Below the pieces are notes generated by a model. It was not told where the DNA came from. It saw nothing but the letters and a program-made list of their open reading frames with translations, and made no database searches. The position numbers and the translations under genes are program-made. A stretch of 64,000 bases of DNA from Eledone cirrhosa (Eukaryota), in assembly GCA_964016885.1 (NCBI GenBank), contig OZ024744.1, positions 76,632,001 through 76,696,000 of the forward strand, given 5' to 3'. Of the stretch, positions 8,028-12,429 are shown piece by piece; within the stretch, counting starts at the first letter, position 1; each line of letters begins with the position of its first letter.

Positions 8028-8161
8028 ACACACACACACACACACACATATATATATATATATATATATATATATATATATATATATATATATATATATA
8101 TATATATAATATAATGAAATGACAGGAGGCTGGATTTGTGTAAATCCTTGAAAGGTTTATT

Positions 8162-8219
8162 ATACTATGATCATTTCAATGACCGGGTTCCGTATGAATC
8201 CGGTGATATCATCAGGTAT
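8162..8219 (-). ncRNA. type I hammerhead ribozyme with palindromic stem III
   Basis: atac CTGATGA tatcaccgg..ccggtcatt GAAA tgatca TA|gtat. Confidence 0.85.
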
Positions 8220-10966
8220 TCGAAATATAATACGTGAATGTAATAGGTAAAATCCATGGGGCTGAAAATCGAGACCCGAGGGCGACCGCTATTCTGTTCC
8301 TTCAACCTCAGCCGGTCGCCCTGGAGTGACGTGGCTAAATTTTATAGTATGCTACTACCGGTCAGATGAACGAAAACAGAAAGAGATGGGAGCATAGGTT
8401 AACGTCGATCCCATGACACAAGGTAAAAGAAAGAAAGAAAGGAAGGAGAAGAAGGGGGAAGAAAGAAGAAGAGAAGTCAGGGTTAATGTCAGCTAAAAGA
8501 GGAAGGTAACTACTACTGGTCAGATATAGGCAAGCAAGAGGGGGAAGGAAGATAAGTCTGCAGGGAGGAGGAGAGGAGAGAAGGAAGGGAAGAGAGAAGT
8601 AGAAAAGTAAGGGTTGATGGCTACAAGAAGGAAGATAGAAAGGAAGAGGAAGAAAGGTCGATATTAATGTCAGACCACAGTCAAGCCAGGAGTGGCGCGA
8701 GAAAATTTTCACAGGGACCCGCATCTTAGCGGAGATGGATATATTGGGAGTCAGTGTTTTACAGTGTTTAGACTTCTAGGATGAAGTTAAAAAAATTTAA
8801 TAATCAATATTCAATATTAAAGAGGTTAGAAAATTTAAAGTTCAACAGTTTAACAATTAATTATATAATAGTTCCGATTTGTTCTGTAATTTAAAGGTAC
8901 TATTTGGCGGTTAAAACAACGGCCGCGCCCCGGGCCCCATGGCGAATTAAGCCACGCCGAGTATTTTCATTTACTGAAAGAAGGGGAAATTTATTTTTCC
9001 AAGCACTCTAGGTGAGCTCGTTCGCCACGGAGCTGGTCGCGCCGCCATTAAAACCCACCCAACAGTCCGACAAAAAGTTGGAACTTTAAAATTTAGCTTA
9101 GAGAAGTAAAAGAGTAATGGTTGATAGCTACAAGAAGGAAGATAGAAAGAGAGAGGAAGGAAGGTCGATATTAATGTCACACCACAGTCGGGCCAGGAGT
9201 GGCGCGACAAAATTTTCACAGGGACTCGCATCTTAGCAGAGGTGAATATATTGGGGGTCAGTGTGTTACAATGTTTAGACTTATAGGATGAAGTTAAAAA
9301 ATTAATAAATTAATAATCAATATTCCATATTAAAGAGGTTAGAAAACTTAAAGCTCAACAGTTTCAGGTTGATATATATAATAGTTCCGATTTGTTCTGT
9401 AATTTAAAGGTACTATTTGGCGGTTAAAACACCGGCCGCGCCCCAGGCCCCATGGCTAATTAAGCCACGCCGAGTATTTTCATTTACTGAAAGAAGGGGA
9501 ATTTATTTTTCCAAGCACTCCAGGTGAGCCCGTTCGCCAGGGAGCTGGTCGCGCCGCCGCTAAAACCCACCCAACGGTCCGACAGAAAGTTGGAACTTTA
9601 GAATTTTGCTTAACTCTATCGGATGAAGTTGAAAGAATTCAGAATAACATTATGAAACTAAGGAGTAAGAGGATTGAGAATTGAACAAACAGAAAATTGA
9701 AGATTAGACATTCAAATAACTTCTATGAGGTTTTGGGTTGCGGGGTTTAATTAAATAGTCTTTTATGAAGAAACGTTAATTGTATTATGTAGATCTGTAA
9801 TTTATCCTAGTGGGATGTAGAGTACGGGATATAGTCGTGTAATGTTTAATTTTTGTTCTCAGGAGGAGACATTCTAGTGTCGTGTGCTAATGGGTACAGG
9901 TCCCAATGTGAGGAGTAGAAATACATGGATACATAGAAGTGGAATACGTGGAAGAGCTAATGGGTACAGGTCCCAATGTGAGGGGTAGAAATACATGGAT
10001 ACATAGAAGTGGAATACGTGGAAGAGCACATTGGTACAGCAGAGGTATAAATATATAAACATATCAATATATAGGTATAAACATGTAAATAAACCAACAA
10101 GAGTGGTGTTGGAGTAAGATGGAGAAATCAGGACATTAATACAGCAAACAAAGATGTGAAGATATAGATAAACAAACAATAGTCGTTGTCTAGTAAATGT
10201 AGAGTTCAAGAGACAGGAGAAATACAATATAGTTCGGGTTGCGGTATTTATGTTCCCAGGGGGGAAATATTCCAGTGACGTGTGCTGAGGGTACACGCGA
10301 GTAAAAGTCCGAATAAGGGAAGTAGAAAGTACATGGATGTATAGAGGTAGAATACGTGGAGGAGCATTAATACAGCAAATAAAGATGTAAAGATATAAAT
10401 AAACAAACAAGAGTCGTTGTCTATTAAATGGAGAGTTCAAGACACAGGAGAAATACAATATAGTTCAAGTTGCAGTCAGATAATGCATATAGATGTGGAA
10501 ACAGTGCGTGTTCGAGTCTGGGAGTTCAGTGTGAGTTATACATGCCCAGAAGTATAGGGTAGCCATTTAGTTAATTCAGTGCAGTACAATACATGTTATG
10601 GTCCAGTCCGTGGAGTTTCGTCGAAGTTCGGATATTCTGTGAGGGGAGTAGCAAAGGGCCAGGCGAAAGCACCGGGTAGCCAAAGTTCGAATTGTGGTTA
10701 GATATATTCAGTCCCATGCCGCTGTTGATTATTACATTTTGAAGTGCTCAACATTTCAGGAGCGTTATTTATTCAGGTTTGAGGTTCACCACTGTATAGA
10801 GCTGGTCTATTCCGTATGGTCAATCGTAATGCAATAATATAGAGAGTACTCAACGTAAAGCAGTTCAACCGTCTTTGTTTTTGTAGTTGGTGGTGCTATT
10901 ACGGAGTTAAATATTATAATGAAATGACAGGAGGCTGGATTTGTGTAAATCCTTGAAAGGTTTATT

Positions 10967-11024
10967 ATACTATGATCATTTCAATGACCGGGTTCCGTAT
11001 GAATCCGGTGATATCATCAGGTAT
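10967..11024 (-). ncRNA. type I hammerhead ribozyme, identical second copy
   Basis: Same sequence as 8162-8219, 2805 bp away. Confidence 0.85.
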
Positions 11025-12429
11025 TCGAAATATAATACGTGAATGTAATAGGTAAAATCCATGGGGCTGAAAATCGAGACCCGAGGGCGACCGCTATTCT
11101 GTTCCTTCAACCTCAGCCGGTCGCCCTGGAGTGACGTGGCTAAATTTTATAGTATGCTACTACCGGTCAGATGAACGAAAACAGAAAGAGATGGGAGCAT
11201 AGGTTAACGTCGATCCCATGACACAAGGTAAAAGAAAGAAAGAAAGGAAGGAGAAGAAGGGGGAAGAAAGAAGAAGAGAAGTCAGGGTTAATGTCAGCTA
11301 AAAGAGGAAGGTAACTACTACTGGTCAGATATAGGCAAGCAAGAGGGGGAAGGAAGATAAGTCTGCAGGGAGGAGGAGAGGAGAGAAGGAAGGGAAGAGA
11401 GAAGTAGAAAAGTAAGGGTTGATGGCTACAAGAAGGAAGATAGAAAGGAAGAGGAAGAAAGGTCGATATTAATGTCAGACCACAGTCAAGCCAGGAGTGG
11501 CGCGAGAAAATTTTCACAGGGACCCGCATCTTAGCGGAGATGGATATATTGGGAGTCAGTGTTTTACAGTGTTTAGACTTCTAGGATGAAGTTAAAAAAA
11601 TTTTAATAATCAATATTCAATATTAAAGAGGTTAGAAAATTTAAAGTTCAACAGTTTAACAATTAATTATATAATAGTTCCGATTTGTTCTGTAATTTAA
11701 AGGTACTATTTGGCGGTTAAAACAACGGCCGCGCCCCGGGCCCCATGGCGAATTAAGCCACGCCGAGTATTTTCATTTACTGAAAGAAGGGGAAATTTAT
11801 TTTTCCAAGCACTCTAGGTGAGCTTGAAATGATCATAGTATAATAAACCTTTCAAGGATTTACACAAATCCAGCCTCCTGTCATTTCATTATAATATTTA
11901 ACTCCGTAATAGCACCACCAACTACAAAAACAAAGACGGTTGAACTGCTTTACGTTGAGTAATCTCTATATTATTGCATTACGATTGACCATACGGAATA
12001 GACCAGCTCTATACAGTGGTGAACCTCAAACCTGAATATATATATATATATATATATATATATATATATATATATATATATATATATATATATTTATATA
12101 TATATATATATATATATATATATATATATATAATTAATATATCTACCGACATATGTATACAGATGCATGCATATGCTAGCAGATATATATGTTTTGTCTT
12201 AGTAACTTTGTAGTTCTATGCAGGGGAATGCAGAACAATTATATGAAAGATGTAAATAAGAAAGTTATGAAAATTGACTTACTTACTAAAATTTCACTTT
12301 TAGGTGTGCTGTGCTACCACAGCGAAAGTAATGAAATTTACGGCCTTCTACCGAAATGTTTATTCTGTTGTTGTCGTCGATGACGACTTTTTCTGTTATT
12401 TTGGAGATTCTTTCCGGCCTCATTTACAT

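What the first reader, a model, noticed from the sequence alone, without database searches (positions are those of the whole stretch)
8110..12038. 2.8-kb non-coding element delimited by two identical hammerheads, with an inversion that starts at the ribozyme GAAA
Minus-strand cleavage at 10971/10970 and 8166/8165 would release a 2805-nt monomer with no RT ORF. That is much longer than the few-hundred-nt animal retrozymes. The repeats are nearly identical, so the insertion is young. The terminal inverted piece (11824-12038) begins at ttGAAAtgatcata, next to the cut site. The body is built from internal duplications (about 510 bp at 8590-9610, about 60 bp at 9888-10027, about 240 bp at 10130-10475).
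Basis: partly seen in the sequence, partly recalled or inferred. Interest (0 to 1): 0.75.

Follow-up and report, generated by a model that had tools for sequence, protein, structure and literature searches.

The report
Giant hammerhead retrozyme riding Penelope enzymes
This is one copy of a young, abundant, protein-less 2.8-kb jumping repeat with a hammerhead-ribozyme motif; it likely borrows the copying enzyme of a Penelope-like retrotransposon and is likely copied from a self-cut circular RNA, which would make an old idea about these ribozymes testable, while the mirror joint at the ribozyme is chance.

Summary
The anatomy is real. The repeats, cut sites, 2,805-nt spacing and lack of an ORF all check out. 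It is not a one-off: about 1,900 exact end matches, roughly 1,000 insertions, median 99% identical, sitting in (TA)n. The inversion at the ribozyme GAAA is chance: 1 of 122 inner ends lies there and 0 at the cut. This is a non-autonomous Penelope-like element. All 52 two-armed insertions have exactly one end with a 149-nt tail. Each end sits about 7 nt from a bulged hairpin shared with an intact Hydra-clade element. No arm reaches two units, repeats within an insertion share lineage variants, and a 467-nt deleted unit is itself tandem. That favours copying from one RNA unit, likely a circle (about 60%). Cleavage, the circle and the partner enzyme are not shown. The layout and the circle idea are published, and this scan found the hairpins and fixed ends before on other DNA of this genome. 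New here are the size and the census evidence.

The parts
8048..8109 (.). (TA)n target, left flank
   Evidence: TRF array 8048-8113; outer ends of other copies abut TA runs too
8110..9018 (-). Terminal direct repeat (pLTR); its 3' end at 8110 is fixed end E1 (no tail)
8162..8219 (-). Minimal type I hammerhead motif, copy 1; predicted cut 8166/8165; palindromic stem III (AUGAUCAU)
   Evidence: pairs kept in 97% of cells over three subfamilies, covariation not above shuffles
8166..10970 (-). Predicted 2,805-nt monomer or circle between the two cuts; non-coding
   Evidence: spacing; no ORF; RNA itself inferred
8262..8268 (-). Splice-acceptor-like TTTTCAG upstream of the hammerhead (second copy 11067-11073); conservation across subfamilies begins here
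   Evidence: splicing untested
8593..9612 (.). Internal duplication, about 510 nt, 90.5% identical
9886..10039 (.). 70-nt tandem repeat, 2.2 copies
10130..10476 (.). Internal duplication, period about 231 nt (117 nt at 90.6%)
10746..10763 (-). Bulged hairpin 2 (GCUC.C ... G.UU.GAGC), just past fixed end E2; present only at internal unit junctions
   Evidence: weak fold on its own (z -1.05)
10766..10914 (-). 149-nt tail between the two fixed ends E1 and E2
10848..10907 (-). Bulged hairpin 1 (ACUC.CGUA ... UACG.UU.GAGU), 7 nt past fixed end E1
   Evidence: fold z -2.25
10915..11823 (-). Second direct repeat: 5'-truncated start of a second round of the unit (909 nt)
   Evidence: 0 substitutions in 897 nt against 6.2 per kb between loci
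10967..11024 (-). Hammerhead motif, copy 2; predicted cut 10971/10970
11824..12042 (+). Inverted second arm: 70 nt of pLTR (3' half of the hammerhead, no CUGAUGA) plus the tail, ending at E2; 1-nt overlap at the joint
12036..12132 (.). (TA)n target, right flank

Best explanation
This is one insertion of a young, high-copy, non-coding repeat with a 2.8-kb unit and Penelope-type ends, likely mobilised in trans by a Hydra-clade Penelope-like reverse transcriptase-endonuclease and likely copied from a circular RNA made by its two hammerheads. SHOWN: copy number, youth, lack of an ORF, (TA)n flanks, two fixed 3' ends 149 nt apart, exactly one tail per two-armed insertion, twin bulged hairpins beside the ends shared with an intact Hydra family, scattered head-to-head joints with 1-7 nt overlap, and repeats within an insertion that share lineage variants. 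INFERRED, step by step: (1) a locus longer than one unit is transcribed on the minus strand; (2) its two hammerheads pair through the palindromic stem III and cut out one 2,805-nt unit, which a host ligase closes; (3) the enzyme, probably a dimer, binds both hairpins of one RNA and nicks both strands of (TA)n; (4) each nick primes cDNA, one at E1 and one at E2; (5) synthesis runs through the ribozyme site and on past one full round until it stops at random (mean about 700 nt); (6) the two cDNAs join head to head by microhomology. Odds: non-autonomous Penelope-like element about 0.93; Hydra-clade enzyme about 0.8; covalent circle as template about 0.6.
For: Copy number: 1,905 exact matches of a 35-nt end sequence, 0 for the reversed control. 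Median identity 99.0% to the window unit over the 71 other loci. Ends: 52 of 52 two-armed insertions are E1+E2, among 72 loci (17 single-armed, 3 unclear). Joints: overlap of 1-7 nt in 38 of 52. Hairpins: found about 7 nt past both ends here and 4-6 nt past both ends of Hydra family H1 (827-831-aa open frames, 137-nt tail), with compensatory changes between families; 0 of 5,000 shuffles place the motif after both ends; a third family in this window has it too. One template: direct pairs share 120 minor alleles against 6 discordant polymorphic sites (19 pairs), inverted pairs 178 against 27 (29 pairs). Lineage indels sit in both direct repeats of L031, L243 and L248, and a 467-nt deleted unit is repeated almost twice in L235. 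No two-unit donor: 45 exact internal-junction matches in 44 loci, none in direct tandem; longest arm 5,007 nt. Yet 10 tail-bearing arms pass a second hammerhead. No barrier at the cut: 0 of 122 inner ends; decay length 702 nt within the first round and 657 nt beyond it. Literature: two internal starts explain the tail (PMC11167929); circle template proposed (PMC4209133); retrozyme circles shown in animals (PMC7229834).
Against: No cleavage, circle or transcript was observed. The active hammerhead fold is 11 kcal/mol above the lowest-energy fold as a monomer and 9 above it as a dimer. Covariation among subfamilies A-C does not exceed shuffles (275 of 500), and Rfam finds nothing. In the one Penelope-like element tested in vitro, the hammerhead was not needed for insertion and uncut RNA was the main substrate (PMC11167929). 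No ORF-bearing element with DNA similarity to this unit was found: H1 shares only the motif geometry (217 of 300 shuffles scored as high; no real blastn hit). Repeats within a locus still differ at 93 (direct) and 133 (inverted) private sites, and a few loci (L053, L254, L255) show discordant shared alleles. The junction census is exact-match only, in one assembly that may collapse arrays. Extending the pattern 8 nt across the cut lost 157 of 1,934 matches; I checked only the 7 lost among the first 100 rows (5 point changes, 2 ends 6 nt past the cut). Hairpin 2 is weak here (z -1.05), and I defined the motif after seeing these sequences.
Confidence: 0.6

Rival explanations
1. Same element and enzyme, but the template is a linear hammerhead-cut monomer and the enzyme jumps from its 5' end to its own 3' end.
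For: It explains shared variants, re-made tandems and the 467-nt tandem as well as a circle does. Template jumps have been proposed for Penelope elements (PMC3846280).
Against: Every arm would have to jump after only 56 or 205 nt. 0 of 122 inner ends lie at the cut, 0 of 7 checked losses end there, and the decay length does not change across the unit boundary.
Confidence: 0.14
2. The template is uncut linear read-through RNA, either from a tandem master array missing from this assembly, or from tail-ended loci read into (TA)n; the hammerhead is a passenger and gene conversion keeps the repeats alike.
For: Hammerhead mutants still insert in vitro and uncut RNA dominates (PMC11167929). The active fold is not the lowest-energy one. 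It also predicts no ends at the cut. Another Penelope-like family here does have a five-unit array (C2 near 359.52 Mb).
Against: No two-unit locus among the 44 loci with the exact junction. Several lineages, each with its own indels in both repeats, would each need a hidden array. The L235 deletion joint occurs twice in tandem. The hammerhead is near-invariant across subfamilies whose bodies fall to 65-88% identity.
Confidence: 0.2
3. The inversion is made at the ribozyme, for example by fold-back or cleavage at the GAAA.
For: In this copy the arm starts at TTGAAA, 13 nt from the cut. Two of 100 listed ends stop inside the stem III palindrome.
Against: 1 of 122 inner ends at the GAAA and 0 at the cut; the rest are scattered from position 40 to 2805.
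Confidence: 0.03
4. The 2.8 kb is only the long 3' untranslated part of a truncated autonomous element, or a local duplication or assembly artefact.
For: Hydra H1 has about 3.7 kb between its stop codon and its hammerhead.
Against: Arms that pass 2,805 nt run back into the tail and pLTR, not into an ORF (26 of 39 arms pass a second hammerhead). No ORF remnant was found. There are about 1,900 dispersed ends, and the unit is present in public contigs.
Confidence: 0.03

Closest known systems
Metazoan non-LTR retrozymes (PMC7229834, passages read; bioRxiv 10.64898/2026.07.22.740005, parts 1-3 of 5 read)
   Same: Non-coding, type I hammerhead once per unit, head-to-tail repeats, GC 40%, proposed to ride Penelope-like enzymes through circular RNA.
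   Different: The unit is 2.8 kb against 170-400 nt RNAs and 51-972 bp consensuses (that survey capped the repeat period at 1,000). It never reaches two full units. It has the minimal Penelope-type hammerhead, an inverted arm, a tail and a (TA)n target. Expression and circles are not shown here.
Hydra clade of endonuclease-bearing Penelope-like elements (PMC8557442, section 11, passages and supplement hits read)
   Same: (TA)n target, hammerhead in the pLTR, partial tandem plus inverted truncated arm; twin hairpins and a long tail are shared with Hydra family H1 of this genome.
   Different: No RT-endonuclease ORF or remnant; no alignable DNA with H1; tail 149 nt against the published 30-40 bp.
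Poseidon element of the green anole, PAc (PMC11167929, parts 1-2 of 4 read)
   Same: Two internal start sites downstream of the hammerhead define the tail; AT-rich target; both strands nicked and extended; predicted dimer.
   Different: PAc is autonomous, its starts lie inside the ORF, its tail is short, and its hammerhead was dispensable in vitro. A strict one-tail-per-insertion rule and twin bulged hairpins were not described in the parts I read.
Non-autonomous and cargo-carrying Penelope-like elements: MRC1 of Chlamydomonas (PMC8557442, passages) and pLTR-flanked cargo in Adineta vaga (PMC3846280, passages)
   Same: Sequence without a Penelope ORF is moved in trans between two direct pLTRs and one inverted pLTR; the tail is optional at one inverted end.
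   Different: Chlamys elements mostly lack hammerheads; the rotifer cases are few copies of host cargo, not a family of about 1,000 insertions with a succession of subfamilies.

Membership tests
Penelope-like element (non-autonomous) | Partial tandem forming pLTRs, 5' truncation, inverted 5'-truncated arm | tested here: met
   features as listed in PMC8557442
Penelope-like element (non-autonomous) | [quoted passage not shown] | tested here: met
   52 of 52 two-armed loci have one tail; 149 nt rather than 30-40
Penelope-like element (non-autonomous) | Minimal type I hammerhead in the pLTR (short helix I, long helix II, palindromic helix III) | tested here: met
   features from PMC4209133; motif only, activity not tested
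Penelope-like element (non-autonomous) | End similarity to a named autonomous partner | tested here: inconclusive
   motif geometry shared with Hydra H1 but no DNA similarity; only two intact families were examined
Autonomous Hydra-clade element | Single ORF with RT, CxCX5C linker and C-terminal GIY-YIG endonuclease | tested here: not met
   no match of a Hydra profile to the units; not filed as an autonomous member
Autonomous Hydra-clade element | Insertion into (TA)n | tested here: met
   outer ends printed for 35 loci abut TA runs
Metazoan non-LTR retrozyme | Non-coding unit with one type I hammerhead, repeated head to tail | tested here: met
   26 of 39 long arms carry two hammerheads in direct order; none has two complete units
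Metazoan non-LTR retrozyme | Short unit (about 150-450 bp; up to 972 bp in one survey) | tested here: not met
   2,805 nt; a 467-nt derivative exists in L235
Metazoan non-LTR retrozyme | Self-cleavage of the transcript | not testable with these tools
   folding only; the active fold is not the lowest-energy one
Metazoan non-LTR retrozyme | Accumulates as linear and circular monomer RNA | not testable with these tools
   only assembled contigs of unlabelled runs were available; genomic signs are indirect
Plant LTR retrozyme | Type III hammerhead in true LTRs with PBS, PPT and 4-bp target duplication | tested here: not met
   type I motif, (TA)n flanks, variable repeat length; PBS and PPT were not searched

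The most novel reading that the evidence does not exclude
A multi-kilobase animal retrozyme: a 2.7-2.8-kb covalently closed non-coding RNA, cut out by a cis double hammerhead, that carries two docking hairpins for a dimeric Hydra-clade enzyme and is copied by rolling reverse transcription from both nicks of one (TA)n target. Small retrozymes then arise from it by internal deletion, as in the 467-nt tandem. This would show that Penelope more-than-unit insertions come from ribozyme-made circles and that such elements have no small-size limit.
Probability: 0.5. Interest if true: 0.68.

Novelty: new variant of a known kind. Interest (0 to 1): 0.48.

Why it matters
What hammerheads do in Penelope-like elements is open: a circular template was proposed in 2014 (PMC4209133), while the only in vitro system found the ribozyme dispensable (PMC11167929). 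This family is young, non-coding and fully countable, so it separates the models from DNA alone: no two-unit donors, variants shared by both repeats, no stops at the cut. It also gives sharp bench targets: a 2.7-2.8-kb circle, two hairpins and one candidate enzyme clade. It suggests that surveys capped at 1-kb repeats miss long retrozyme-like elements. The layout itself is known, so the gain is mechanistic, not a new class.

Tried and rejected
Rfam: the whole-window scan returned only microsatellite-driven miRNA matches among the 150 rows shown of 375; the element gave 0. Expression: no RNA holder listed; this is no evidence either way. Partner search: a 784-aa family (GIY-YIG and RVT_1 hits; Neptune-like by its linker, my label from PMC8557442) has intact copies but a 41-nt tail, no hammerhead core in 2.4 kb of spacer and no similarity to the unit. 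13 stretches downstream of other Penelope-like ORF pieces scored no better than shuffles against our hammerhead and tail. Following more distant relatives (subfamilies B, C, D) found no linked ORF in 20, 20 and 30 loci; for most D loci only 1.5 kb of flank was held. A Hydra ORF remnant 4 kb upstream in L221 is separated from the D end by other repeats. An apparent 'FGY...NIP' N-terminal remnant after hairpin 2 was not supported by an N-terminal Hydra profile (best E 1.5). The tail as coding sequence: no frame is open in all subfamilies. RNAalifold of A-C gave little covariation (2 of 68 pairs). Two short motifs from the element were absent from the PMC8557442 supplement. A combined hammerhead count for subfamilies A-C was not obtained. 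Rows dropped: 5 loci fetched twice were counted once; 6 of 45 arms with unclear ends or deleted units were left out of the decay estimate.
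Full report
CHECK OF THE OBSERVATION. The window lies in a 3.0-Gb assembly (G000:C28). The two direct repeats are 8103-9018 and 10908-11824, 99.7% alike and 2,805 nt apart; the inverted piece 11824-12042 mirrors 10766-10984. On the minus strand each repeat holds a type I hammerhead motif: 4-bp stem I, CUGAUGA, an unpaired U, a long stem II, GAAA, a palindromic stem III (AUGAUCAU) and UA at the cut. Rfam does not detect it. The internal duplications are there, with periods of about 510, 70 and 231 nt. 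There is no RT ORF or remnant.

A FAMILY, NOT A LOCAL EVENT. An exact 35-nt end sequence occurs 1,905 times and its reversed control 0 times. Most insertions have two arms, so this means roughly 1,000 insertions (inference). I mapped 72 loci, including this one: the top hits of two DNA searches and all 44 loci with the exact internal junction. Median identity to the window unit is 99.0% (range 94.4-100). Below, m is the position in the unit, with m1 = 8110. Arms start at one of two fixed ends, E1 (m1) or E2 (m2657, 149 nt further 3' on the RNA), and the outer ends printed for 35 loci abut TA runs. They stop at scattered inner points. Older sisters exist: B (pLTR 87-91% alike, unit about 2.06 kb), C (80-87%) and D (64-72%), none with a linked ORF in the loci held. 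The present unit likely grew by the internal duplications (inference).

THE INVERSION AT THE GAAA IS CHANCE. Inner ends run from m40 to m2805. Of 122, one is at m64-72 (this copy) and none at the cut, m54-59. Joints show 1-7 nt of overlap in 38 of 52 cases, 10 nt in 1, none in 4, and inserted bases in 9. Here the overlap is 1 nt. Partial tandem, inverted truncated arm and a one-sided tail are the published shape of Penelope-like insertions (PMC8557442, passages; PMC3846280, passages).

TWO STARTS, ONE PER ARM. All 52 two-armed insertions have one E1 end and one E2 end; none has two of a kind (17 further loci are single-armed, 3 unclear). Either arm can be the longer one (tail arm longer in 17 of 32). 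In the anole element PAc the tail lies between two internal starts of reverse transcription, both DNA strands are nicked and extended, and the protein is predicted to be a dimer (PMC11167929, parts 1-2 of 4). Earlier notes of this scan pointed me to the Hydra clade and to hairpins beside the ends; I tested this on my own loci. A motif RCUC-stem-YY-GAGY begins 7 nt past E1 and about 7 nt past E2. An autonomous family, H1, has 827-831-aa open frames in 5 of 5 loci fetched, with RWR, DKT, YRDD and CxCX5C motifs that fit the Hydra clade. It ends at two sites 137 nt apart, each 4-6 nt before the same motif. The stems change in compensating ways between families (CGUA/UACG, UGUA/UACA, CUA/UAG, CUG/CAG, CAA/UUG). 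0 of 5,000 shuffles put the motif after both ends, though I defined the motif after seeing these sequences, and a third match of it lies inside our tail. H1 shares no alignable DNA with our unit, so the clade is implicated but the partner family is not identified. A protein search with one Hydra piece gave 72,815 first-look candidates, of which 150 were scored; other Hydra families were seen only as fragments.

ONE RNA UNIT PER INSERTION. Repeats within an insertion differ less than copies between loci: 3.3 against 9.4 per kb for 46 inverted pairs, 5.2 against 12.0 for 16 direct pairs (47 loci). Over 19 direct pairs, 120 minor alleles are shared and 6 polymorphic sites are discordant; over 29 inverted pairs, 178 and 27. 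Private differences number 93 and 133, as expected from mutation after insertion. Lineage indels stand in both direct repeats of L031 (21-nt deletion), L243 (122-nt deletion) and L248 (two insertions). In L235 a deleted unit of 467 nt, which keeps the hammerhead, tail and both hairpins, is repeated almost twice with the same deletion joint and then inverted. So tandems are remade from a single unit after a variant arises (inference).

WHY A CIRCLE. Hairpin 2 lies beyond E2, so it exists only at internal junctions. That junction has 45 exact matches in 44 loci, none in direct tandem, and the longest arm is 5,007 nt, 1.79 units. A linear transcript of such a locus has less than one unit upstream of hairpin 2, yet 10 tail-bearing arms pass a second hammerhead. 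A linear cut monomer would end 56 or 205 nt after the starts, but no inner end lies there. Extending an exact probe 8 nt across the cut lowered the count from 1,934 to 1,777; of the 7 losses among the first 100 rows, 5 were point changes and 2 ended 6 nt beyond the cut. Arm length decays with a mean of 702 nt in the first round and 657 nt beyond it, and 0.55 arms with a second junction are expected where 0 are seen (39 of 45 arms). A closed monomer fits all this most simply. A palindromic stem III that needs two ribozymes would cut only more-than-unit transcripts and spare the circle; that logic and the circular-template proposal are in PMC4209133 (passages), and retrozyme circles are shown in PMC7229834 (passages).

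WHAT SPEAKS AGAINST. Nothing at the RNA level was seen. The active fold scores -4.0 kcal/mol against -14.9 for the best fold, and the double hammerhead -24.6 against -33.9, so it would need help from protein or co-transcriptional folding. Covariation within A-C is no better than shuffles. PAc did not need its ribozyme in vitro, and 8 of 9 frog retrozyme dimers did not cleave (bioRxiv 10.64898/2026.07.22.740005, parts 1-3 of 5). A near-perfect template jump, or a hidden tandem array plus gene conversion, or priming at E2 on read-through (UA)n without hairpin 2, are not excluded.

COMPARISON AND NOVELTY. It works like a metazoan retrozyme riding a Penelope-like enzyme. It meets the structural tests of a non-autonomous Penelope-like element, fails the ORF test for an autonomous Hydra member and the size test for a classical retrozyme, and the cleavage and circle tests cannot be run here. 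Published animal retrozymes are 170-400 nt or 51-972 bp in a survey capped at period 1,000. Kilobase cargo between pLTRs and non-autonomous Chlamys elements are known. Six literature searches (listings and abstract starts only, apart from the six papers cited) showed no multi-kilobase animal retrozyme, no 149-nt tail and no twin-hairpin model; the library lacks most subscription papers and Repbase, and the bioRxiv supplements were closed. Within this scan, the fixed ends, hairpins, Hydra link and circle idea were noted before on other families of this genome (unreviewed AI notes, not independent support).

VERDICT. New variant of a known kind; interest 0.48.

Noticed in passing
window 5476-60021: Twelve further hammerhead motifs of several other families, some as opposite-strand pairs (16728/16888, 45924/46507, 47057/47200); the one cut at 16679 has the same bulged hairpin.
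   Followed up: partly
L235:4230-5600; L257:3128-3573; L251: Internally deleted units (467 nt, about 300 nt, about 2.49 kb) that were still mobilised; the 467-nt one is tandem and retrozyme-sized.
   Followed up: partly
run X1 laid on window 8130-11200: An unlabelled 88-Mb contig set covers the body at near-even depth (27-94), unlike the steep end-heavy profile of X2-X4, and carries the deletion and 7 of 21 alleles of one sub-lineage (L223, L243, L258). This is what RNA from one master locus would look like, but the run's kind is unknown and contig depth is a poor measure: a weak lead only.
   Followed up: partly
window 11067-11073 and 8262-8268 (minus): Conservation among subfamilies begins at a pyrimidine tract plus CAG followed by CCCCATGG, which opens a 28-codon frame through the ribozyme in A and B. 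In D. virilis Penelope an intron ends at the ribozyme (PMC4209133).
   Followed up: no
L215, L219 (Hydra H1): About 3.7 kb lie between the stop codon and a long-armed hammerhead core, giving a unit of about 6.6 kb, against under 3 kb for published Hydra elements.
   Followed up: partly
L085-L104: A young 784-aa Penelope-like family with many intact frames, a 41-nt tail, no canonical hammerhead core in its spacer, and a five-unit array on C2 near 359.52 Mb.
   Followed up: partly
window 56098-57824 (minus): Broken Penelope-like RT fragment, 30% identical to the 784-aa family.
   Followed up: no
window 1-4484: 41-nt minisatellite, 109 copies, strongly strand-skewed.
   Followed up: no
L270, L271: Two short arms end at unit position 62, inside the stem III palindrome; possibly a minor hotspot.
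   Followed up: no
L087:8772-8908 and L105-L134: A chimera of another repeat with 92 nt of the subfamily C tail is itself multi-copy and clustered on a few contigs.
   Followed up: no
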